A DNA stretch of 33,279 bases from a virus. Taxonomy: Duplodnaviria > Heunggongvirae > Uroviricota > Caudoviricetes. A program made the translations under genes and the position numbers. Below, in pieces: positions 20,087 through 29,769 of the stretch (the stretch's first letter is position 1; the number at the start of each line of letters is the position of its first letter). Under the pieces are notes generated by a model. That model was not told where the DNA came from, searched no databases, and was given only the letters and a program-made list of their open reading frames with translations. The stretch is taken from the IMG/VR virus record IMGVR_UViG_2718217713_000004, positions 1 through 33,279 of that record, one strand, 5' to 3'.

Positions 20087-21859
20087 ATGACCATCACCAC
20101 AGACACCACTCTTTTACACGACCCGCGTCGTCAGGCGGCGCTGCTGTACTGGCAGGGGTTTTCCGTGCCGCAGATTGCCGCCATGTTGCAGATGAAACGC
20201 CCGACGGTGCAGAGCTGGAAACAGCGCGACGGCTGGGACAGCGTTGCCCCCATCAGCCGTGTCGAAATGAGTCTGGAAGCGCGGCTGACCCAGCTCATCA
20301 TCAAACCGCAGAAAACCGGCGGGGACTTCAAGGAAATTGACCTGCTGGGACGCCAGATTGAACGACTGGCACGGGTCAACCGTTACAGCCAGACCGGCAA
20401 CGAGGCAGACCTTAATCCGAACATCGCTAACCGCAACAAAGGCGGGCGTCGCAAACCGAAAAAGAATTTTTTCAGTGACGAGGCCATCGAAAAGCTGGAG
20501 CAGATTTTCTTTGAGCAGTCTTTCGAATATCAGTTGCACTGGTATCGCGCCGGGCTTGAGCACCGCATCCGCGATATCCTGAAATCCCGCCAGATTGGCG
20601 CGACGTTTTATTTTTCCCGCGAGGCGCTGCTGCGCGCCCTGAAAACCGGTCATAACCAGATTTTTCTGTCGGCCAGTAAAACGCAGGCGTATGTGTTCCG
20701 CGAATACATCATCGCCTTTGCCCGGCTGGTTGACGTTGACCTGACCGGTGACCCGATTGTCCTGGGCAATAACGGCGCAAAACTGATTTTTCTCGGCACC
20801 AACTCCAACACCGCGCAGAGCCATAACGGCGACCTGTACGTCGACGAGATTTTCTGGATCCCGAATTTTCAGGTACTGCGTAAGGTGGCATCAGGTATGG
20901 CCTCACAGAGTCACCTGCGCTCGACCTATTTCTCCACCCCGTCCACACTGGCGCACGACGCCTACCCGTTCTGGTCGGGTGAACTGTTCAACCGGGGACG
21001 CGCCAGCGCCGCCGAACGCGTGGAAATCGACGTCAGTCATAACGCCCTTGCCGGAGGTCTTCTCTGTGCGGACGGCCAGTGGCGGCAGATTGTCACCATT
21101 GAGGACGCCCTGAAAGGTGGCTGCACACTGTTCGACATTGAGCAGCTCAAACGTGAAAACAGCGCCGACGATTTTAAAAACCTGTTCATGTGTGAATTTG
21201 TTGACGACAAGGCGTCGGTGTTCCCGTTCGAGGAGCTGCAACGCTGCATGGTCGACACGCTGGAAGAATGGGAAGACTATGCGCCGTTTGCCGCCAATCC
21301 GTTCGGCTCACGCCCGGTATGGATTGGTTACGATCCGTCACACCGTGGCGACAGCGCCGGATGCGTGGTACTGGCACCGCCGGTGGTGGCCGGTGGCAAA
21401 TTCAGGATCCTTGAGCGTCACCAGTGGAAAGGCATGGACTTTGCCACTCAGGCTGAATCCATCCGCAAACTCACCGAAAAATACAACGTCGAATACATCG
21501 GTATTGATGCCACCGGCCTCGGTGTCGGCGTGTTCCAGCTCGTGCGCTCGTTCTATCCCGCCGCGCGCGACATCCGCTACACGCCGGAAATGAAAACCGC
21601 AATGGTGCTCAAGGCAAAAGACGTTATTCGCCGTGGCTGTCTGGAATATGACGTCAGCGCCACCGACATCACCAGCTCGTTTATGGCTATCCGCAAGACC
21701 ATGACCAGCAGCGGACGCAGCGCCACCTATGAGGCCAGCCGCAGCGAGGAAGCCAGCCACGCCGACCTCGCCTGGGCGACCATGCACGCCCTGTTAAATG
21801 AGCCACTCACCGCCGGTATCAGCACCCCGCTGACATCCACCATTCTGGAGTTTTACTGA
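20087..21859 (+). CDS. P: Terminase ATPase (large) subunit gpP
   Basis: Sequence from MTITTDTTLLHDPRRQAALLYWQGFSVPQIAAMLQMKRPTVQSW... matches P2 gpP; ATG at 20087 chosen over the ORF-track start at 20057. Confidence 0.9.
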   Translation: MTITTDTTLLHDPRRQAALLYWQGFSVPQIAAMLQMKRPTVQSWKQRDGWDSVAPISRVEMSLEARLTQLIIKPQKTGGDFKEIDLLGRQIERLARVNRYSQTGNEADLNPNIANRNKGGRRKPKKNFFSDEAIEKLEQIFFEQSFEYQLHWYRAGLEHRIRDILKSRQIGATFYFSREALLRALKTGHNQIFLSASKTQAYVFREYIIAFARLVDVDLTGDPIVLGNNGAKLIFLGTNSNTAQSHNGDLYVDEIFWIPNFQVLRKVASGMASQSHLRSTYFSTPSTLAHDAYPFWSGELFNRGRASAAERVEIDVSHNALAGGLLCADGQWRQIVTIEDALKGGCTLFDIEQLKRENSADDFKNLFMCEFVDDKASVFPFEELQRCMVDTLEEWEDYAPFAANPFGSRPVWIGYDPSHRGDSAGCVVLAPPVVAGGKFRILERHQWKGMDFATQAESIRKLTEKYNVEYIGIDATGLGVGVFQLVRSFYPAARDIRYTPEMKTAMVLKAKDVIRRGCLEYDVSATDITSSFMAIRKTMTSSGRSATYEASRSEEASHADLAWATMHALLNEPLTAGISTPLTSTILEFY

Positions 21860-22893
21860 TGAGCAAGAAAAAAGGGAAAACACCGCAACCTGCGGCAAAA
21901 AAAATGACCGCCAGCGCCCCGAAAATGGAGGCATTCACCTTTGGTGAGCCGGTGCCGGTACTCGACCGCCGTGACATTCTGGATTACGTCGAATGCATCA
22001 GTAACGGCAGATGGTATGAGCCACCGGTCAGCTTTACCGGTCTGGCAAAAAGCCTGCGTGCTGCCGTGCATCACAGCTCACCGATTTACGTCAAACGTAA
22101 TATTCTGGCCTCGACATTTATCCCGCATCCGTGGCTTTCCCAGCAGGATTTCAGCCGCTTTGTGCTGGATTTTCTGGTTTTCGGTAATGCGTTTCTGGAA
22201 AAGCGTTACAGCACCACCGGTAAGGTCATCAGACTGGAAACCTCACCGGCAAAATATACCCGCCGTGGCGTGGAGGAGGATGTTTACTGGTGGGTGCCGT
22301 CCTTCAACGAGCCGACAGCCTTCGCGCCCGGCTCCGTGTTTCACCTGCTGGAGCCGGATATCAATCAGGAGCTGTACGGCCTGCCGGAATATCTCAGCGC
22401 CCTTAACTCTGCCTGGCTGAATGAGTCAGCCACGCTGTTCCGCCGCAAGTATTACGAAAACGGCGCGCATGCCGGATACATCATGTACGTCACCGATGCC
22501 GTGCAGGACCGCAACGATATCGAAACGCTTCGCGAAAACATGGTGAAGTCGAAAGGCCGCAACAACTTTAAAAACCTGTTTCTCTATGCGCCGCAGGGGA
22601 AAGCCGACGGCATAAAAATTATCCCGCTCAGTGAAGTGGCAACGAAAGACGATTTTTTTAATATCAAAAAAGCCAGCGCCGCTGACCTGCTGGACGCGCA
22701 CCGTATCCCCTTTCAGTTGATGGGCGGCAAGCCGGAGAACGTCGGGTCACTGGGAGATATTGAGAAAGTGGCAAAGGTCTTTGTCCGCAATGAGCTTATC
22801 CCGTTACAGGACAGAATTCGGGAAATAAACGGCTGGCTCGGTCAGGAGGTCATCCGCTTTAAAAACTACTCACTGGACACTGACAACGGTTGA
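21859..22893 (+). CDS. Q: Portal (capsid) protein gpQ (344 aa)
   Basis: Length and sequence match P2 gpQ; start overlaps the P stop. Confidence 0.9.
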   Translation: MSKKKGKTPQPAAKKMTASAPKMEAFTFGEPVPVLDRRDILDYVECISNGRWYEPPVSFTGLAKSLRAAVHHSSPIYVKRNILASTFIPHPWLSQQDFSRFVLDFLVFGNAFLEKRYSTTGKVIRLETSPAKYTRRGVEEDVYWWVPSFNEPTAFAPGSVFHLLEPDINQELYGLPEYLSALNSAWLNESATLFRRKYYENGAHAGYIMYVTDAVQDRNDIETLRENMVKSKGRNNFKNLFLYAPQGKADGIKIIPLSEVATKDDFFNIKKASAADLLDAHRIPFQLMGGKPENVGSLGDIEKVAKVFVRNELIPLQDRIREINGWLGQEVIRFKNYSLDTDNG

Positions 22894-22898
22894 ACATC

Positions 22899-22920
22899 GC
22901 CGCCTGCTGGCGGCTTTTTT
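22899..22920 (+). terminator. Rho-independent terminator downstream of Q (stem gccgcc/ggcggc, T6 run)
   Basis: GC hairpin gccgcctgctggcggc followed by tttttt, beginning 6 nt after the Q stop. Confidence 0.75.
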
Positions 22921-23062
22921 ACACCCCGTCATCACGCCCTCACACGCTCACCACCGCAAAAAACACCCCGCAGACACACCAACGCCTCAACGGGCAGACT
23001 AAGCGCCGTCACGACGCGCTGAGACGCTGAAAAAATAAAATCAGCACCACCGCCAGCGCGCA

Positions 23063-23081
23063 GTGCTTTCCCCGCCTCGCC
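23063..23081. other. cos: cos cohesive-end site (19 nt; reverse complement reads GGCGAGGCGGGGAAAGCAC)
   Basis: Exact match to the 19-nt P2 cohesive end as I recall it, located just beyond Q as in P2. Confidence 0.7.
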
Positions 23082-23324
23082 CGCCCGCTTCATGGGGCGG
23101 TTTTAATGCAGTTGCACAGCCATGTCAAAGCCATGTCAACACTAGCAGTATGTAAAAAGAGCAGATATAAGAAACAAATGCAGTTTCATGCAAAAAGCGA
23201 CACACATCATGTCATGAAACAAAGCCGCTAATGAACACTTGCTTTGGTTATCTTAAGGTTTTATCTTCAGCCTAACCTATTGATTGCATGAAACTAAAAT
23301 GAACTCTCAGCAAGGAACGACTAT

Positions 23325-25283
23325 ATGTCAGATTTCGAAATTAAAATTGATTTGAATGTGCTAAATCACCTAGGGATGAGTCTCTATTCCAATACTCCCG
23401 CGGTACTAACTGAGATTATATCAAATGCATGGGATGCAGATGCTCAAAATGTAGAAATTACACTTGATGTTGAGAAAGGAGAGGTCATCATTAAAGATGA
23501 TGGTCATGGCATGTCTAAAGATGACATTATTAATAAGTTCCTAAAAGTCGGTTATGCTCGCAGGGAACATGGAAGAGCCAAAAGCGATCATCTAAAACGT
23601 CAAGTTATGGGCAGAAAAGGTATTGGTAAGCTTGCCATGTTTTCACTTGCCAATAAAATCCAAGTTTATTCGTACAAAAAGGGGGAACAGCCTCAGGCCT
23701 TTGAGGTAGATGTCAAAGATTTACAGCAAAGTATCAAAGAATCAAAAAACTATATTGCTGACTCCCTTGAAATACCCGAAAATCTTGCTTACGGCACTAC
23801 AATTAAATTATTTGAACTAAAAAAAGCCATTGATAGGACTCAAACTTACCTCAGAAAGCGAATAGCTCGTCGATTTAGCATTATTGGCCCCAACCATAAC
23901 TTTACAGTTAAAATTAATGGGACCGATATTACACCGGCAGATAGAGATTTCCTTTCAGATCTCGAGTTCATTTGGGAATTTGGCGAATCCGACCCTGAAA
24001 GGATAAAATCCTGCACAAACATCACACAAAAAAACATATTACCAAATACTATTACCTTTGAAGGAAAAGATGTAAAAGTTAGTGGGTACATTGGCAGTGT
24101 AGTTAAGCCATCACAGTTAAAGAAAGACCCTGAAATATCTAACAACAGCATTACTGTAATCTCTCACGGACGTGTTTTTGAGGAGGACATATTATTAGAA
24201 TTTGGAAGTGCTAAAGTATTCACCAATTATCTGGTCGGTGAAATAGTCGCCGATTTTCTAGATGATAACGAAAAGCCTGATATGGCAACATCTTCTCGTC
24301 AAAAACTACAACAGAATGATCCAAGATACCCTGTACTTAAAGGTTTTCTGGAAAGAACGCTACAACTAATCGATAAAGATTGGGATAAATGGAGACGCGA
24401 AAAAGGAGTAAATGAAGTTAAAAGTAATACTCCAATAGTAAGTGAATGGCTGAATTCTCTCAAAAAACATGAGAGAGAAAGTGCCGAAAAGTTAATTGGA
24501 CGAGTAAACACATTCCGTTTTTCTGGTAATGAGGAAGAACAAAAAGCAGCAAGAAAAACCGTATTAAAAAATACGGTATTAGCCTTTGAAAGACTTAGAA
24601 TTCAAGACAACCTTGATGCATTAGATAAAATAAGCAACCTTCAATCAGAAAATTTTAAAGATGTATTTGCATCTGTCAATGACATTGAAGCAAGCATGTT
24701 TTATGAAATTACTTCGCAACGCCTTAAAGTAATTGAAAAATTCCAAAAAATAACTGATGAAAATCAGCTTGAAAGAGCTGTACAAATGTATTTATATGAT
24801 CATTTATGGTTATTGGATCCTTCATGGGAAAGAGTCACAGGCACATCTGTTATGGAGCAAACATTGACCAAGGAACTAAAACAGATAAACCCTGATGCTG
24901 CTAGCGGTGCTCGTATTGATATCGCTTTCAAAACCGTTTCTGGCAAGCATGTAATTATTGAGATGAAACGACCTAAAGTGCACCCAGATATAATGAACCT
25001 AGTCGCACAAGGTAATAAATATGTACAGGCAACGACACAATGGTTCTCCAATAACCCTAAAAATTGCCCAGGTGGAAATATACCGCATATAGAAGTAATA
25101 TTCCTGGTTGGCTCTGGATATTTACAAGAGAACCAACACTTTATAAATATGCAATTACTTTCTATCAATGGAAAAATATTGACATATAATGACCTAATCG
25201 TGCAATCAAAACAAGCCTATGCTGAATATCAAGACAAAAAGAATGATGCAGCTAGAATTATGAAAATAGTTGAGGGAATCTAA
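23325..25283 (+). CDS. Hypothetical GHKL-family ATPase (HATPase_c / Bergerat fold, MutL-MORC-like N-terminal domain) with a C-terminal PD-(D/E)xK-like nuclease motif, 652 aa; candidate restriction or defence effector
   Basis: N box EIISNAWDA, G1 box IIKDDGHGM, G2 box GRKGIGKLAMF near the N-terminus; C-terminal ARIDIAF...HVIIEMKRPK fits D...(D/E)xK; Shine-Dalgarno aagga upstream of ATG; AT-rich codon usage unlike the phage backbone. Confidence 0.6.
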   Translation: MSDFEIKIDLNVLNHLGMSLYSNTPAVLTEIISNAWDADAQNVEITLDVEKGEVIIKDDGHGMSKDDIINKFLKVGYARREHGRAKSDHLKRQVMGRKGIGKLAMFSLANKIQVYSYKKGEQPQAFEVDVKDLQQSIKESKNYIADSLEIPENLAYGTTIKLFELKKAIDRTQTYLRKRIARRFSIIGPNHNFTVKINGTDITPADRDFLSDLEFIWEFGESDPERIKSCTNITQKNILPNTITFEGKDVKVSGYIGSVVKPSQLKKDPEISNNSITVISHGRVFEEDILLEFGSAKVFTNYLVGEIVADFLDDNEKPDMATSSRQKLQQNDPRYPVLKGFLERTLQLIDKDWDKWRREKGVNEVKSNTPIVSEWLNSLKKHERESAEKLIGRVNTFRFSGNEEEQKAARKTVLKNTVLAFERLRIQDNLDALDKISNLQSENFKDVFASVNDIEASMFYEITSQRLKVIEKFQKITDENQLERAVQMYLYDHLWLLDPSWERVTGTSVMEQTLTKELKQINPDAASGARIDIAFKTVSGKHVIIEMKRPKVHPDIMNLVAQGNKYVQATTQWFSNNPKNCPGGNIPHIEVIFLVGSGYLQENQHFINMQLLSINGKILTYNDLIVQSKQAYAEYQDKKNDAARIMKIVEGI

Positions 25284-25288
25284 TTATA

Positions 25289-25312
25289 CCCCCCTGTTTT
25301 TTGACAGGGGGG
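25289..25312. terminator. Hairpin between the convergent GHKL and methyltransferase genes (stem cccccctgt/acagggggg, U-rich loop); terminator-like, bidirectional
   Basis: Perfect 9-bp GC stem read from the sequence; no clean post-stem T-tract, so terminator function is tentative. Confidence 0.45.
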
Positions 25313-25324
25313 ATGACATAAGTT

Positions 25325-26374
25325 TTAAATATTCATTTCTGACAAATGTTTTAAAATAGTTTCACCTACGACCTCACCAAGCCTAACAGGAACAGCATTA
25401 CCTATTAAACGCGCAACTGTTCTCATTTCAATTTTTACATCATCAGGCCAAAACTCATACTTTTCTGGGAATGACTGTAATAGCGCAGCCTCTCTTAAAC
25501 TTAATGCTCTATTTTGGACAGGGTGCCCAAAGCGTCCATTCCCATATCCAATACATTGAGTTGTAATTGTCGGTCCAAGTTTATCCCAACACATTCTCCC
25601 ATATACAGCAGTATATGTAGAACCACTTTCTTTTGTATGACATTTTGCTCTTAGCTCTTCTGGCCAATCACGCCATGTTCCACCAGGTTTTGATGCCATT
25701 ATTCTTTTTATATTAATATCAGATAATGATGCAGAGCGATGTAGTTTATCTCCAGCGTGAACAGCACCGGCACTAATTTCAGGAAGATTACCGATTATAT
25801 CTCGCACCGTTTTATAATCATTCTTCTCATGAGTTGGTGGAATTATTTCTATTTCTCCATATTTTGATGCCAATAACACTAATCTTGAACGACTTTGTGC
25901 CATTCCATAGTCTGGACAAAACACCACCCCATACCAAACAAAATAGCCATCATTTTTAAGAGACTTAATGAAGTCCTTAAAAACCTTATGATTCACCACT
26001 CGGGGAACGTTTTCCATTGTAATAATATCTGGCTTTGCAAATTTAATTTGCTTAGCAAAGCTATAAAGCAAAGACCATCTTTTATCTTTTGAACGTACTA
26101 CCCCTAATTTAGCACTATTGGTATAGCTTGAAAAAGGTTGGCATGGGGCACAACCAGCCAAAACTCGAACCTTCGCTCCTTCGAAATATTTAACTAATTC
26201 GCCGTCCTCAATGTCTGTAACACTTTTCTGGACAAAGAGTGATTTATTATTTGTCTCATAGGCAAATCGACAGGCTGCATCTATATCATAACCTGCAACT
26301 ACATTAAGCCCCGACTTCTGAAGACCGTGAGTCAAGCCACCCGCGCCACAGAATAAATCAACAACCTTAATCAA
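25325..26374 (-). CDS. DNA (cytosine-5)-methyltransferase, Dcm-type
   Basis: Motif I DLFCGAGG, motif IV PCQPFS, motif VI ENV, C-terminal GNAVP in canonical order; start assigned to TTG at 26374..26372, preceded by AAGGAGG with 6-nt spacing (ORF track begins further upstream at 26476, also TTG). Confidence 0.85.
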   Translation of the reverse strand: MIKVVDLFCGAGGLTHGLQKSGLNVVAGYDIDAACRFAYETNNKSLFVQKSVTDIEDGELVKYFEGAKVRVLAGCAPCQPFSSYTNSAKLGVVRSKDKRWSLLYSFAKQIKFAKPDIITMENVPRVVNHKVFKDFIKSLKNDGYFVWYGVVFCPDYGMAQSRSRLVLLASKYGEIEIIPPTHEKNDYKTVRDIIGNLPEISAGAVHAGDKLHRSASLSDINIKRIMASKPGGTWRDWPEELRAKCHTKESGSTYTAVYGRMCWDKLGPTITTQCIGYGNGRFGHPVQNRALSLREAALLQSFPEKYEFWPDDVKIEMRTVARLIGNAVPVRLGEVVGETILKHLSEMNI

Positions 26375-26440
26375 GATAAACCTCCTTCTAATGCTGTGGG
26401 GATTGTAGCATTGTTCTTTCTCATCATCGATGTTTACTTG

Positions 26441-26471
26441 ATGCTTGATTTGTGAATACAAAATCAAGCAT
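26441..26471. promoter_or_regulatory. 31-bp palindrome ATGCTTGATTT-N9-AAATCAAGCAT overlapping a promoter-like TTGACA upstream of the methyltransferase; candidate operator
   Basis: Perfect 11-bp inverted arms read from the sequence; AT-rich with no T-tract (not terminator-like); on the minus strand TTGACA overlaps the first arm. Confidence 0.45.
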
Positions 26472-26485
26472 GTCAATCATTATTG

Positions 26486-28765
26486 TTAGTTTGTTTCAAA
26501 TCCCGCCCAACCATCAGAAATCGGATATGAAAACGTTTTCCCATCATAATTTACGGTCGCGCCACGCGCCAGCGCCTCAAGCTCCCATCGCTGCGGCCTG
26601 ATACCGTTCTGAGCAAGGTCAACGCGGATACGGGTAATTTGCATTCGTTCCGACCGGGCCAGTCTGGCCGATGGTGCAATTTCATGTGGTTTTAACGAGC
26701 TTCCGTTTCTTTGCTGACGATTTGGCGTTCTCCGACCGTGTTTTAATGCACCTCTGAGCGCCCTCACGACCTCCGGGTCACTCCATTCGATAACACTGTC
26801 ATCAACCAGATTAAGCACTGCTGCGGCGTGCTCAGAAGGTGTGGGAGCCGGTAACGAAGTATCACCACCGGTGAGTTTTCCACAGTTATTGACAGGACTC
26901 CGAGGCGCGGCGATGCCGCTTTTTAAAGTCAAAGGCTCAACGACCGGCACTTTCGGCACAATGCGCCAGTCCGTCGTTCTGGTGATATGAATATGACGCG
27001 CGCCGAGATGCGGCGCGTAAATGCCGACCACTCTCTCGACTTCTTCCTCGTACTCGTTAACGTCATCCGACGGGCTACGGGCAACCCTGACAGTCTGACA
27101 ATCGCGCGGAACATTTGCCCCACCCTGCGCGCTGATATACAACGCAAAATCACCACTGTCTGCGGCAGCGCGTGCAGCCTCGACGCGTTCGTCAAACTCA
27201 TCAGCAATGCTGACGCCGCGAGGCAATTTGCGTAGTTCACGGTAAGCCCCCATTGTCGGCAGGCCAACCGTTTTAAATTGCGGAATGCGCCACGTTGACG
27301 CCCATGCGGTAACAGCCGCGGCAGTGTCTTTCAGCGGCCTGCCGGTATCGTTATCGAGCTGACCATCCAGTGCATAGCCATCGATGTTTTTTGAAATGTA
27401 TTTCGCGATATACCCCGCAGCACCGCCCCGGTTAAGGTGTTTTGCCTGAAAACGGTTTCGCGCAGCTCCTCTTTCGTCGCCATCCTCTTTGAGCGCGTAG
27501 CGACGCATGATTTCAATAATCTGGTTACGCTGGCGTGGATTACAAAAAAGCATCATATGCCAGTGCGGCGTTCCGTCGTGGTGTGGCTCGACGACTCGCA
27601 AACCGTAGACCTGTAAATCATTATCCTTGAATGCCGTGCGCATCAGGCTCCAGATACGGCAGAGATAACGCTGCGCATCCTTTGGATTAAATGCCTCATC
27701 GTTCCAGCCGTGATTTAGCTGGACGGTTTTACTTTCTCCTTTTCCGACCTGACGTGTCGGGTGATACTTTGACGGCGCGGTCAGCGTGATAAACATCCCC
27801 ACATCACCCTCTGCTGCGGCGTAACGCTCAATACCGGCGATGGTGTTCATCAGCTCCATCCGGCGAATTTCTGGATTAGAAATACTGCCCATCACCTTAC
27901 TGATAAGGTCGATGCGCTCGCCGGTTTCCTTGTTTTCAAGGTCACACGATTTAAGAAACTCCAGATTTGCCTGGCGGCGCGCACGCACATCACGAATGGC
28001 ATGTTTACTGGCATAAGGAGAACGGTCTTTATTGACCTCCCCGACAGCAATCAGTAACGCCTCATGCCAGCGCATACGCTGGCCTTTAAGCTGATGAGTC
28101 CACCACTCATCGTTAAACAGACGGGCAATGGCAGAATATGCCTGCCTCGTGGTTATCTGTCCTTTACGGTATTTTTTCCAGTAGAGCGGGGAAATATTGA
28201 AAGCACGTGCAGCGCCAGCAACATGACCATACAGGTGAGTCTGCGCCTCATCCGTAAACAGCGATTCTTTTTCGCCATGTGCATCAACCCATGCATCGCA
28301 GAGTTCCTCATACATCATGAAAAGCTGCGATGAGATACGGGCGGCAAACTTTTTCAGCTCCTTGTCATTCATTCCAGGCAGGCGCGCATAGTGGTCACGC
28401 TCTGCCAGAAACAGCAACGACGCGTCGGTGTTCATTTCATGGCGCTGATTCACGCGCTCAATGCGCGGCCATAAACGACGCTGAAAAGTAGATGTGAGGA
28501 AATAAAACCCGTGCACCGGGCTTTTATTGCGCCGGATGTAGTCATAGCGTGAAGTAAACAGCGAGCGCAAAAAGTAAGGCAGGCGGTTAATCGTGGATAA
28601 AACACCTTGCACCTGACGCATCTCGTCACGTGTAAGGGGTCTTTCGCGCCCGACGGCCTCGCGTGGCGCGTTCCATGCATAAGCACCGGTAAACGCCTTA
28701 CCGGTGCCTGCAGCAAATGCTGACGGAGGTACGCAGGTGTATTGCTCCTGGAAAGAATGACTCAT
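26486..28765 (-). CDS. A: Replication initiation protein gpA (rolling-circle nicking endonuclease, 759 aa)
   Basis: Length and sequence match P2 gpA; start overlaps the stop of the upstream gene (ATGA). Confidence 0.9.
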   Translation of the reverse strand: MSHSFQEQYTCVPPSAFAAGTGKAFTGAYAWNAPREAVGRERPLTRDEMRQVQGVLSTINRLPYFLRSLFTSRYDYIRRNKSPVHGFYFLTSTFQRRLWPRIERVNQRHEMNTDASLLFLAERDHYARLPGMNDKELKKFAARISSQLFMMYEELCDAWVDAHGEKESLFTDEAQTHLYGHVAGAARAFNISPLYWKKYRKGQITTRQAYSAIARLFNDEWWTHQLKGQRMRWHEALLIAVGEVNKDRSPYASKHAIRDVRARRQANLEFLKSCDLENKETGERIDLISKVMGSISNPEIRRMELMNTIAGIERYAAAEGDVGMFITLTAPSKYHPTRQVGKGESKTVQLNHGWNDEAFNPKDAQRYLCRIWSLMRTAFKDNDLQVYGLRVVEPHHDGTPHWHMMLFCNPRQRNQIIEIMRRYALKEDGDERGAARNRFQAKHLNRGGAAGYIAKYISKNIDGYALDGQLDNDTGRPLKDTAAAVTAWASTWRIPQFKTVGLPTMGAYRELRKLPRGVSIADEFDERVEAARAAADSGDFALYISAQGGANVPRDCQTVRVARSPSDDVNEYEEEVERVVGIYAPHLGARHIHITRTTDWRIVPKVPVVEPLTLKSGIAAPRSPVNNCGKLTGGDTSLPAPTPSEHAAAVLNLVDDSVIEWSDPEVVRALRGALKHGRRTPNRQQRNGSSLKPHEIAPSARLARSERMQITRIRVDLAQNGIRPQRWELEALARGATVNYDGKTFSYPISDGWAGFETN

Positions 28766-29769
28766 TCACATACACCGGCATAGACACTACTGCAAACTGA
28801 CTTATCATTCACCGAAGCCAGCAAATCAAACTGTGCCCCGCCACGCGTGGTCATCGCCCAGTCACGATAAGACTCAATTCCGTAAGCATCGACAGTAATA
28901 ATATCAATGCGGCGTTCCGCACGACGCGGGTCATGAGTTGACGGGAAGAAAGTAGAATTTCCGCGTCTGGAGCATGCGGCGACAAGTCGCTCCCATTCCG
29001 CAACACGCTTAACCTCTTCCGGCCAGCGACTAAAAATTTCAGCTAATTCAGACTTTCTGGCGTGGATGCAGGGCATACAACCGACACGACTGCATCCCTG
29101 CTGGTATAACGGATTAGGTTTAATTCCATGACGTCTTGCAAATGCAAATACCTCCTCATGCGTCCAGTTCAGAATAGGACGGTATACATGGAGCCCGGGC
29201 GTATTGTCCGCATCCTCTTCCCAGGCAGGCAGACCCGCGCGCGCAGGAGACTCCTGAGCGCGAACCCCCTGCCAGCTAATTACCTCATCAAACTCATTAA
29301 GCGCAGGTAACACGACCTGAGTACGTACTGGCTCATGTTTAAGGTCAAAAGTGCAAAATCTGGCTTTAGTGGAAGGAAATCGCCCTTTCCACATGCACAA
29401 ATCAAGAAATGGGATACCAGTAGGCTTGAGAATTTCCAGCGCACAATTGATGCGCTCTGCCGCTTCCCCCGGAGACATTCCGCACTCTTCAACCAGAGAA
29501 ACAGGCCATTTCTCAGCAATAAACTTGCGCTTACCTTCAATCTGTCGGGAGAAGTCAGCTTTAACCCGTTTAACCGGCCCGAGTCGGTTCTCCAGATAAT
29601 CGAGATACTCCATTGTCTGCGGATGCTCATGCCCGGTGTCTGCAAAAACCGGCAAAAAATGCACACCGCTTTCAATACCAACAAGCCATTGAGCAAGGCT
29701 ATCCTTTCCGCCAGAAACAGAAATAATATTGATAGAGCTTTCAGCTCGGCAGCGGGTATCAACTATCAT
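28762..29769 (-). CDS. PP-loop ATP pyrophosphatase, PAPS-reductase-like family protein (335 aa); accessory gene absent from the P2 reference early operon
   Basis: PP-loop ISVSGGKDS near the N-terminus and Cys cluster CSRVGCMPC near the C-terminus; ATGA overlaps with orf83 (29766..29769) and A (28762..28765). Confidence 0.7.
   Translation of the reverse strand: MIVDTRCRAESSINIISVSGGKDSLAQWLVGIESGVHFLPVFADTGHEHPQTMEYLDYLENRLGPVKRVKADFSRQIEGKRKFIAEKWPVSLVEECGMSPGEAAERINCALEILKPTGIPFLDLCMWKGRFPSTKARFCTFDLKHEPVRTQVVLPALNEFDEVISWQGVRAQESPARAGLPAWEEDADNTPGLHVYRPILNWTHEEVFAFARRHGIKPNPLYQQGCSRVGCMPCIHARKSELAEIFSRWPEEVKRVAEWERLVAACSRRGNSTFFPSTHDPRRAERRIDIITVDAYGIESYRDWAMTTRGGAQFDLLASVNDKSVCSSVYAGVCE

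What the first reader, a model, noticed from the sequence alone, without database searches (positions are those of the whole stretch)
25325..26476. m5C methyltransferase with a non-ATG (TTG) start and strong Shine-Dalgarno, positioned directly downstream of replication gene A
The only in-frame initiator placed sensibly before motif I (DLFCGAGG) is TTG at 26374..26372, preceded by AAGGAGG at optimal spacing; the ORF track's longer reading also begins at a TTG. The gene is co-directional with A and the early operon, so it could be expressed with phage replication (self-protection of phage DNA) as well as from its own promoter, while the partner ATPase/nuclease gene has a separate promoter on the other strand. 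This arrangement fits either a complete R-M-like module or an orphan anti-restriction methyltransferase combined with an unrelated effector.
Basis: partly seen in the sequence, partly recalled or inferred. Interest (0 to 1): 0.5.

Follow-up and report, generated by a model that had tools for sequence, protein, structure and literature searches.

The report
Prophage restriction-modification methylase, TTG start
The gene is the cytosine methylase half of an ordinary two-gene restriction-modification system (HgiDII/BbrUII family) carried in the known defence hotspot of a P2-like prophage, and it does start at the proposed TTG, as public annotation already says.

Summary
The TTG at 26374-26372 lies 6 nt after AAGGAGG and 5 codons before motif I. 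It is the only canonical in-frame start with a ribosome-binding site. RefSeq (WP_000598783.1) and a GenBank phage record already annotate this 349-aa product.

Seven diverged copies of the module (66-89% protein identity) keep the TTG. In two of them an in-frame stop just upstream leaves no other canonical start.

The convergent 652-aa neighbour is not an unrelated effector. It scores 751 bits (cut-off 550) on NCBI's equivalog model for BbrUII/HgiDII restriction enzymes. All 10 related modules fetched by protein look-up, 7 from P2-like hotspots and 3 from other prophage positions, keep it convergent with the methylase. So this is a complete Type II R-M cassette, with GTCGAC/5mC predicted by family only.

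The cassette is a low-GC, 3.4-kb cargo next to cos, in the published gpA-gpQ hotspot. 30 of 5,426 complete E. coli genomes carry it.

One small extra: the methylase promoter is conserved. It has an extended -10 (TGnTACAAT) and an 8-bp palindrome, CATCGATG, at the -35 position, and no controller gene is present. Interest is low.

The parts
25325..26374 (-). m5C DNA methyltransferase CDS (349 aa, TTG start, TAA stop); the M gene of the R-M cassette
   Evidence: PF00145 E = 9.2e-56 over model positions 1-323/324. Same CDS in RefSeq as WP_000598783.1 and in PV340563.1. Catalytic motifs are invariant in 35 relatives: F8-G10-G12, P77-C78-Q79, E121-N122-V123, Q160-R162-R164, G325-N326-A327-V328-P329.
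26381..26387 (-). Shine-Dalgarno AAGGAGG, 6 nt before the TTG
   Evidence: Sequence. Anti-SD duplex of -11.2 kcal/mol. A GGAGG-type core is kept in 8 of 8 P2-hotspot copies.
26402..26410 (-). Predicted extended -10 promoter element TGcTACAAT of the methylase gene
   Evidence: TG(C/T)TACAAT is invariant in 8 copies whose surrounding intergenic DNA has diverged. TGgTACACT and TGATAGAAT sit at the same place in the Vibrio and Photobacterium copies. Promoter function is inferred.
26425..26432 (.). Conserved palindrome CATCGATG, 17 nt upstream of the -10 hexamer (the -35 position); candidate operator
   Evidence: Present in 9 of 11 prophage-borne GHKL-type modules including the window (L088 has CATCGAAG, L095 lacks it). 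Absent upstream of the methylase in 69 loci with other partners (38 + 25 + 6) and in the 11 distant GHKL-type loci. Function unknown.
26441..26471 (.). Perfect 11-nt inverted repeat (ATGCTTGATTT N9 AAATCAAGCAT) in the A-M spacer
   Evidence: It folds as a hairpin but has no U-tract, and the scan does not call it a terminator. It is not conserved in the related modules.
25289..25312 (.). G+C-rich hairpin (CCCCCCTGT N6 ACAGGGGGG) between the convergent stop codons; putative bidirectional terminator
   Evidence: Every related module has a different G+C-rich hairpin at this position.
23325..25283 (+). Restriction enzyme gene (652 aa): N-terminal GHKL ATPase plus middle domain, C-terminal PD-(D/E)xK-type nuclease
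   Evidence: NF050001 'BbrUII/HgiDII family restriction enzyme' equivalog, 751.4 bits against a cut-off of 550, over model positions 1-658/659. PADLOC REase_II, E = 2.3e-91. PF13589, E = 2.3e-25. E30, N34, D37, D58, G60, G62, G96-G101, E483, D498, D532, E546 and K548 are invariant in 43 homologues. AF2 model has pLDDT 79.5 and its best PDB matches are Hsp90/TRAP1 N+M domains.
23117..26497 (.). Low-GC cargo island (about 3.4 kb) holding the R-M cassette
   Evidence: GC is 31-40% inside against 50-59% in the flanks. Homology to other P2-like phages stops at 23114-23116 and resumes at 26498-26512.
23063..23081 (-). P2-type cos cohesive-end sequence GGCGAGGCGGGGAAAGCAC, 36 bp from the cargo boundary
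   Evidence: Exact match, with 0 expected by chance. The sequence itself was recalled from my own knowledge of P2.
26486..28765 (-). Replication gene A, co-directional and 111 nt upstream of the methylase start
   Evidence: PF05840, E = 4.4e-124. Annotated as 'replication endonuclease'.
21859..22893 (+). Portal gene Q, the other border of the hotspot
   Evidence: PF04860. Annotated as 'phage portal protein'.

Best explanation
The gene encodes the modification subunit (a C5-cytosine DNA methyltransferase of 349 aa) of a two-gene Type II restriction-modification cassette of the HgiDII/BbrUII family. The cassette is carried as cargo in the cos-proximal gpA-gpQ hotspot of a P2-like prophage.

Shown here:
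- Translation most likely starts at TTG 26374, 6 nt after AAGGAGG.
- The catalytic motifs of the methylase and of the convergent restriction enzyme (GHKL ATPase plus PD-(D/E)xK nuclease) are intact.
- The two genes stay linked and convergent in all 10 related modules fetched by protein look-up, which sit in several different prophage backbones.

Inferred:
- The methylase marks host and prophage DNA, probably at GTCGAC, the site of the two characterised family members.
- The restriction enzyme cuts unmethylated incoming DNA, which protects the lysogen against other phages.
- In the lysogen the P2 early operon is repressed, so the methylase must run from its own conserved promoter: the extended -10 TGcTACAAT, with the palindrome CATCGATG at the -35 position.
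- After infection of a new host, transcription of the early operon through A may read into the methylase gene, since no terminator is detected. That would give modification a head start over restriction.
- The conserved weak start codon (TTG or GTG) behind a strong Shine-Dalgarno probably sets the methylase level.
For: Start codon:
- It is the only in-frame start with a ribosome-binding site.
- PGAP and GenBank annotate the same start.
- 50 of 120 homologues begin exactly 5 residues before DLFCGAGG, and most of the others within a few more residues.
- TTG is invariant in 8 modules with 66-100% protein identity.
- In-frame stops lie 10 codons (L087) and 7 codons (L090) before motif I, which leaves TTG as the only canonical start there.
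- 1-nt indels upstream of the TTG break the long reading frame.

Complete R-M system:
- NF050001 equivalog, 751 bits against a cut-off of 550. PADLOC REase_II and MTase_II.
- A convergent 652-679-aa GHKL partner is present in all 10 related modules fetched.
- Across the seven P2-type copies the restriction enzyme is 77-89% identical and the methylase 66-89%, while gpA is only 31-66% identical.
- R.HgiDII has a GHKL N-terminal domain (PMC2441816). M.HgiDII and M.BbrUII are 5mC methylases, with GTCGAC as the site (PMC5867850, PMC5005818).

Hotspot:
- GC profile, homology boundaries, cos match, and the published hotspot (PMC9122126, PMC13586616).

Promoter and read-through:
- Conserved promoter elements.
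- No terminator-like site between A and the methylase.
Against: - There is no experimental evidence here for the start, for methylation or for restriction.
- GTCGAC is a family-level prediction. I could not compare directly with M.HgiDII or M.BbrUII, and GTCGAC counts in the window (3 against 6.8 +/- 2.4 expected) are uninformative.
- Methylases 52-60% identical to this one pair with other effectors in 63 of 80 genomes, so the linkage is not universal for the methylase family.
- Stand-alone GHKL-Shedu nucleases defend without a methylase (PMC12137116).
- The flanking ATC and ATT codons cannot be formally excluded as rare starts.
- The promoter, the role of the palindrome and the read-through from A are all inferred.
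Confidence: 0.85

Rival explanations
1. The methylase is an orphan or anti-restriction enzyme. The neighbouring GHKL-nuclease is an independent Shedu-like (paraMORC3) defence effector that does not read the methyl mark.
For: 12 of 43 family members hit PF14082 SduA_C. The phage record PV340563.1 labels the protein 'ParaMORC3'. Stand-alone paraMORC3/VcSduA proteins defend on their own (PMC12137116, PMC2292703). The methylase family combines with three different effector sets.
Against: The nuclease passes NCBI's equivalog model for a family with two characterised restriction enzymes. All 10 related modules fetched by protein look-up keep the methylase and nuclease adjacent and convergent across different prophage backbones and hotspots. 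11 of the 80 distant methylase loci also carry a GHKL homologue next to the methylase. A nuclease of this kind without cognate protection would be expected to damage the host (inference).
Confidence: 0.08
2. The protein is the long 383-aa form that starts at TTG 26476, or at the TTGs at 26467 or 26461.
For: This is the mechanical longest ORF. Gene callers produced long forms for two relatives, P0002 and P0003.
Against: These TTGs have no Shine-Dalgarno: duplex energies are +0.6, +0.6 and +3.4 kcal/mol. The extension is not conserved as protein, since 1-nt indels and in-frame stops occur in relatives. It would contain the conserved -10 element and the palindrome. The Pfam domain is already complete in the short form. 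The first TTG is part of a TTGACA hexamer.
Confidence: 0.02
3. Initiation uses a neighbouring non-canonical codon (ATC 26377-26375 or ATT 26371-26369) rather than the TTG, which would shift the N-terminus by one residue.
For: One NCBI record of a relative (P0010, 'MLIKVV...') starts one codon upstream, where the DNA reads ATT. Both codons share the same Shine-Dalgarno.
Against: TTG is invariant in 8 of 8 copies, while the flanking codons vary: ATC or ATT before, and ATT, ATA or GTT after. Two more distant copies have GTG at the same position. ATT and ATC are very rare initiators in E. coli (general knowledge).
Confidence: 0.05

Closest known systems
HgiDII (Herpetosiphon) and BbrUII (Bifidobacterium breve UCC2003) Type II R-M systems, site GTCGAC, 5mC methylase
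   Same: A two-gene system: a Dcm-type methylase plus a restriction enzyme of about 650 aa with an N-terminal GHKL ATPase domain. The nuclease passes the NF050001 equivalog model over its full length (PMC2441816, PMC5867850, PMC5005818).
   Different: This copy sits on a P2-like prophage of E. coli. Its specificity and activity are untested. I did not make a direct sequence comparison with the two prototypes. Distant GHKL-type relatives in the fetched genomes are only 27-41% (nuclease) and 53-57% (methylase) identical.
Cargo of the gpA-gpQ (cos-proximal) defence hotspot of P2-like phages (Rousset et al. 2022, PMC9122126; PMC13586616)
   Same: Same position between A and Q, next to cos. Low GC. 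Replaced by other cargo (Fic/VbhT, DUF4209, retron, old/tin) in related phages.
   Different: I did not find this particular cassette named in the text of those papers. The supplementary tables were not checked.
paraMORC3 / GHKL-type Shedu nucleases (Iyer et al. 2008, PMC2292703; VcSduA, PMC12137116)
   Same: A GHKL ATPase, a middle domain and a C-terminal RE-fold nuclease with a conserved E...D...ExK pattern. Some family members hit SduA_C. The GenBank phage record calls the protein ParaMORC3.
   Different: VcSduA works alone, whereas this enzyme is strictly paired with a methylase. The window's own protein does not reach SduA_C at E <= 0.1.
Dcm-type methylases of DISARM (DrmMII) and Druantia (DruM)
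   Same: These are the best PADLOC profile hits for the methylase: DrmMII 1.1e-90 and DruM 6.8e-74. Relatives at 52-60% identity sit next to Vsr plus an SNF2 helicase.
   Different: No helicase, DUF1998, PLD or Vsr gene is present here. The cargo holds only the M and R genes.

Membership tests
C5-cytosine DNA methyltransferase (PF00145 / TIGR00675 dcm) | Full-length match to the family profile above its curated cut-off | tested here: met
   PF00145: 190.1 bits (cut-off 22), model positions 1-323/324. TIGR00675: 130.2 bits (cut-off 100.65).
C5-cytosine DNA methyltransferase (PF00145 / TIGR00675 dcm) | Catalytic motifs I (FxGxG), IV (PCQ with the catalytic Cys), VI (ENV), VIII (QxRxR) and X (GNAVP) | tested here: met
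   F8/G10/G12, P77-C78-Q79, E121-N122-V123, Q160/R162/R164 and G325-N326-A327-V328-P329 are all present, and all are invariant in 35 relatives.
C5-cytosine DNA methyltransferase (PF00145 / TIGR00675 dcm) | Transfers a methyl group to C5 of cytosine in a defined DNA site | not testable with these tools
   Needs bisulfite, EM-seq or nanopore 5mC mapping, or a SalI-protection assay.
HgiDII/BbrUII-family Type II R-M system | The restriction enzyme matches the family's equivalog model above its cut-off | tested here: met
   NF050001: 751.4 bits against 550, covering model positions 1-658/659. UniRef and NCBI give close relatives the same name.
HgiDII/BbrUII-family Type II R-M system | The restriction enzyme is genetically linked to a 5mC methylase | tested here: met
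   The genes are adjacent and convergent here and in all 10 related modules fetched by protein look-up. A GHKL homologue also lies next to the methylase in 11 distant loci.
HgiDII/BbrUII-family Type II R-M system | Recognition sequence GTCGAC (SalI isoschizomer) | not testable with these tools
   Predicted from family membership only (PMC5867850, PMC5005818). The TRD is as conserved as the catalytic core across the methylase family, which is compatible with one shared specificity. The site count in the window is uninformative.
paraMORC3 / GHKL-type Shedu nuclease | GHKL ATP-binding motifs together with a C-terminal RE-fold nuclease motif (E-D-ExK) | tested here: met
   E30, N34, D37, D58xG60xG62, G96-G101, and E483, D498, D532, E546xK548 are invariant in 43 homologues. 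PF13589, E = 2.3e-25.
paraMORC3 / GHKL-type Shedu nuclease | The C-terminal domain matches DUF4263 / SduA_C (PF14082) | tested here: inconclusive
   The window protein has no hit at E <= 0.1-1. 12 of 43 family members do hit, best E = 2.6e-06. Sequence and fold searches of the PDB returned only GHKL/Hsp90 matches.
P2-like gpA-gpQ hotspot cargo | Lies between gpA and gpQ next to cos, in a segment that differs between related phages | tested here: met
   PMC9122126.
Orphan (solitary) phage methyltransferase | No cognate restriction gene is linked to the methylase | tested here: not met
   A restriction-enzyme gene of a characterised family is convergent, 41 bp away, and the linkage is conserved.
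C-protein-controlled R-M system | A small HTH controller gene within the cassette | tested here: not met
   The only ORFs of 50 aa or more in 23117-26497, other than R and M, are antisense ORFs inside those two genes. RefSeq annotates two genes only.
DISARM / Druantia methylase module | Accompanying helicase, DUF1998 or PLD genes (DrmA/B/C or DruE-type) | tested here: not met
   Only the methylase profile matches. No such genes lie in the cargo.

The most novel reading that the evidence does not exclude
This prophage-borne clade of HgiDII-type cassettes may control itself without a controller protein. The methylase gene combines an invariant extended -10, an 8-bp palindrome (CATCGATG, which shares the TCGA core of GTCGAC) exactly at the -35 position, and an obligatorily weak start codon (TTG or GTG). 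The methylase or the nuclease might bind, or perhaps methylate, this near-cognate site to set the M:R ratio while the phage establishes in a new host. A related point: the 'classical' Type II enzyme family R.HgiDII would be an ATP-driven, Shedu-type nuclease whose self/non-self decision is delegated to 5mC. That would link Shedu defence with orthodox R-M.
Probability: 0.2. Interest if true: 0.45.

Novelty: already known. Interest (0 to 1): 0.17.

Why it matters
The practical value is mostly housekeeping. The analysis confirms that the RefSeq start (TTG, 349 aa) is right and that the 383-aa ORF is an artefact. It also settles that this prophage carries a complete restriction-modification system, not a stray methylase.

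For phage biology this is one more example of a P2-like prophage arming its host through the gpA-gpQ hotspot. The cassette also turns up at other prophage positions in Vibrio, Photobacterium and Pasteurellaceae.

The only part a specialist might follow up is the conserved promoter architecture: the palindrome at -35, the extended -10 and the non-ATG start, with no controller gene. It offers a simple, testable model for how a mobile R-M cassette without a C protein times methylation against restriction.

Tried and rejected
- **Long 383-aa reading.** Rejected: no SD, the frame is broken in relatives, and stops lie upstream.
- **Intrinsic terminator between A and M.** None was predicted. The 11-nt inverted repeat folds but has no U-tract, and the whole spacer folds no better than shuffles (z = -1.4).
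- **Known RNA families in 22700-26700.** None at E <= 0.1.
- **Controller (C) gene in the cargo.** None found.
- **GTCGAC avoidance as a test of specificity.** Uninformative: 3 sites against 6.8 +/- 2.4 by shuffling. A Markov estimate gives 10.6, but many other palindromes are far more depleted, which is a general feature of this genome.
- **Assigning the nuclease domain through solved structures.** Sequence and profile searches of the PDB, and Foldseek with the full-length AF2 model, returned only Hsp90/MutL-type GHKL hits. I did not model the C-terminal domain on its own.
- **Direct comparison with M.HgiDII and M.BbrUII.** Their sequences were not obtainable with these tools. The O'Connell Motherway 2009 paper is not held.
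- **A publication for phage PhiR44_1 (PV340563.1).** None found.
- **Papers on GHKL restriction enzymes together with cytosine methylases in phages.** The search found nothing.
- **CATCGATG as a family-wide operator of the methylase.** Rejected: it is confined to the Enterobacterales/Vibrionaceae prophage clade.

Full report
**Observation**

The window is a P2-like (Peduovirus) prophage. The flagged ORF is 25325..26476 on the minus strand, 383 aa, opening with a TTG. The minus strand reads AAGGAGG (26387-26381), TTTATC, then TTG (26374-26372) ATT AAG GTT GTT GAT TTA TTC TGT GGC GCG GGT GGC. That translates to M-I-K-V-V-D-L-F-C-G-A-G-G, so the proposed start lies 5 codons before motif I and 6 nt after a full-consensus Shine-Dalgarno.

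Between the nearest upstream in-frame stop (40 codons before motif I) and motif I there is no ATG or GTG, only four TTGs. The proposed one has a predicted anti-SD duplex of -11.2 kcal/mol. The three distal ones give +0.6, +0.6 and +3.4.

The 349-aa product aligns to PF00145 over model positions 1-323 of 324 (E = 9.2e-56), so nothing is missing from the short form. Gene A (PF05840, E = 4.4e-124) is on the same strand and ends 111 nt upstream. The only correction is that 26375-26476 is not coding.

**The start is already the annotated one**

RefSeq/PGAP annotates this same 1,050-nt CDS as WP_000598783.1, 'DNA cytosine methyltransferase'. In window coordinates it runs from 26374 to 25325. The GenBank record of Escherichia phage PhiR44_1 (PV340563.1), 99.2% identical over 4.3 kb, does the same.

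**Comparative test of the start**

- Among the 120 closest homologues, 50 begin exactly 5 residues before DLFCGAGG and most of the others within 6-8 residues.
- I fetched the DNA of seven diverged copies of the module, with methylase identities of 66-89%, and aligned the upstream regions.
- The TTG is invariant in all eight sequences, and a GGAGG-type Shine-Dalgarno is kept.
- 1-nt indels upstream of the TTG destroy the long frame.
- In L087 and L090 an in-frame stop lies only 10 and 7 codons before motif I. That leaves the TTG as the only canonical initiator.
- Two more distant copies, from Vibrio and Photobacterium, carry GTG at that position. A Pasteurellaceae copy carries ATG.
- In 80 distant family members the best-supported start is ATG in 66, GTG in 11 and TTG in 3. 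It usually lies 6-8 codons before motif I.

The short form with a TTG start is therefore well supported, and the weak start codon is a conserved trait of this prophage-borne clade.

**The partner gene**

The convergent 652-aa gene (23325-25283, +) is not an 'unrelated effector'.

- It scores 751.4 bits (cut-off 550) over the whole of NCBIfam NF050001, the equivalog model 'BbrUII/HgiDII family restriction enzyme'. It also matches PADLOC REase_II at 2.3e-91. RefSeq and UniRef use the same name.
- R.HgiDII is known to have an N-terminal GHKL domain (PMC2441816). M.HgiDII is a 5mC methylase for GTCGAC, and M.BbrUII is a 5mC methylase reported to recognise GTCGAC (PMC5867850, PMC5005818).
- In 43 homologues the GHKL motifs (E30, N34, D37, D58xGxG62, G96-G101) and a nuclease pattern (E483, D498, D532, E546xK548) are invariant.
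- An AF2 model (pLDDT 79.5) matches the Hsp90/TRAP1 N-terminal plus middle domains.
- 12 of the 43 homologues hit PF14082 (SduA_C, the Shedu nuclease), best E = 2.6e-06. The window protein itself does not. This fits the 'paraMORC3' class of Iyer et al. (PMC2292703), which is the label used in PV340563.1.

All seven P2-type relatives carry the same convergent gene of 652-657 aa. The nuclease is 77-89% identical and the methylase 66-89%, while gpA is only 31-66% and gpQ 62-78% identical. Three further copies in other prophage contexts keep the same arrangement. The methylase's catalytic motifs are intact. This is a complete, conserved R-M cassette.

**Context**

- The cassette is a low-GC island: 31-40% GC against 50-59% in the flanks.
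- Homology to other P2-like phages stops at 23114-23116 and resumes at 26498-26512. The cargo is therefore about 23117-26497, and it includes the last few codons of A.
- The P2 cohesive-end sequence has an exact match at 23063-23081, 36 bp from the cargo boundary. The sequence was recalled from my own knowledge.
- This is the gpA-gpQ, cos-proximal defence hotspot described by Rousset et al. (PMC9122126; also PMC13586616).
- Related phages hold Fic/VbhT, DUF4209, a retron or other genes at this position.
- 30 of 5,426 complete E. coli genomes carry the whole cassette.

**Expression (inferred)**

Upstream of the TTG, all eight P2-type copies keep TG(C/T)TACAAT (window 26410-26402), an extended -10. 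Seventeen nt further upstream lies the palindrome CATCGATG (26432-26425), which is conserved in 7 of the 8.

The Vibrio and Photobacterium copies sit between an integrase and a CI repressor. They keep CATCGATG at the same 17-nt distance from their own -10. The palindrome is absent upstream of the methylase in 69 loci with other partners and in the 11 distant GHKL-type loci.

The cargo holds no controller gene. The methylase has no N-terminal extension that could be an HTH. In a lysogen the P2 early operon is repressed (established P2 biology), so an own promoter is needed to keep the chromosome methylated.

Between the A stop and the TTG no terminator-like site is predicted. There is only an AT-rich perfect 11-nt inverted repeat without a U-tract (26441-26471), which the relatives lack.

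The convergent genes are separated by a G+C-rich hairpin (25289-25312). Every relative has a different hairpin at that place.

**Specificity**

GTCGAC is a prediction from family membership only. Across 88 family methylases the TRD region (residues 185-290) is at least as conserved as the catalytic core. Mean pairwise identities between partner classes are 0.57-0.64 for the TRD against 0.48-0.56 for the core. This fits one shared specificity. Site counts in the window are uninformative.

**Comparison with what is known, and verdict**

The gene is a bona fide Dcm-type methylase and the M half of an HgiDII/BbrUII-family Type II R-M system sitting in a published prophage hotspot. Its start codon, product name and partner family are already in RefSeq.

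It is not an orphan methylase, not a C-protein-controlled system, and not part of DISARM or Druantia, despite profile similarity of the methylase alone.

The modest new points are three: the conserved weak start codon, the conserved promoter with a palindrome at -35, and the recurrence of the cassette in several prophage hotspots. Novelty: already known. Interest: low (0.17).

Noticed in passing
L004-L083 (80 genomes); window 25325-26374: Methylases 52-60% identical to this one sit next to three alternative effector sets. These are GmrSD_N (DUF262) plus HEPN_MAE_28990 in 38 loci, Vsr plus an SNF2-type helicase of about 1,050 aa in 25 loci, and the GHKL restriction enzyme in 11 loci. The TRD is as conserved across the three classes as the catalytic core, so one methylation specificity may be shared by three different nuclease or helicase modules.
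   Followed up: partly
window 26425-26432: The palindrome CATCGATG lies exactly 17 nt upstream of the methylase's -10 hexamer. It is conserved in 9 of 11 prophage-borne GHKL-type cassettes, including the window and copies in unrelated prophage contexts, and is absent from other family loci. It shares the TCGA core with GTCGAC. Its function is unknown.
   Followed up: partly
window 28762-29769 (-): A 335-aa PAPS-reductase-family gene overlaps the start of A by 4 nt. It has profile similarity to SspD (8.6e-22), BrxP and DndC. In PhiR44_1 this position holds orf80-83, and in L087 a Dam-type methylase. It looks like a second variable slot in the early operon.
   Followed up: no
window 23118-23139: A tandem direct repeat, AGCCATGTCAA twice, begins right at the junction between backbone and cargo (homology to other P2-like phages ends at 23114-23116).
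   Followed up: no
window 26441-26471: A perfect 11-nt inverted repeat (ATGCTTGATTT N9 AAATCAAGCAT) lies between the A stop and the methylase promoter. It overlaps a TTGACA hexamer, has no U-tract, and is not conserved in the related modules.
   Followed up: partly
window 26486-26512: Homology to other P2-like phages resumes only at 26498-26512, that is 4-8 codons before the A stop. The C-terminal tip of gpA therefore travels with the variable segment.
   Followed up: no
L094, L096 (Vibrio, Photobacterium); L095 (Ursidibacter): The same convergent M-R cassette sits between an integrase and a CI repressor in the Vibrionaceae prophages. In the Pasteurellaceae prophage it sits between P2-type gpD and a repressor. 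The cassette therefore moves between different prophage hotspots.
   Followed up: partly
L087-L089: In the Pantoea-, Enterobacter- and Rosenbergiella-type copies, a 62-64-aa ORF and a DinI-family gene lie between A and the methylase. 'Directly downstream of A' is therefore specific to this E. coli lineage.
   Followed up: no
window 23178-23192: The motif ATGCA-N5-ATGCA, about 135 nt upstream of the restriction gene's ATG, is recognisable in 6 of 8 P2-type copies. It may belong to the backbone or be a regulatory element.
   Followed up: no
whole window: Several 6-bp palindromes are strongly depleted relative to a Markov expectation: GGCGCC 0 against 17.8, GCCGGC 2 against 30.4, TGGCCA 1 against 16.5, CCATGG 0 against 6.0. 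This is probably the general E. coli-type palindrome avoidance and not something tied to this cassette.
   Followed up: no
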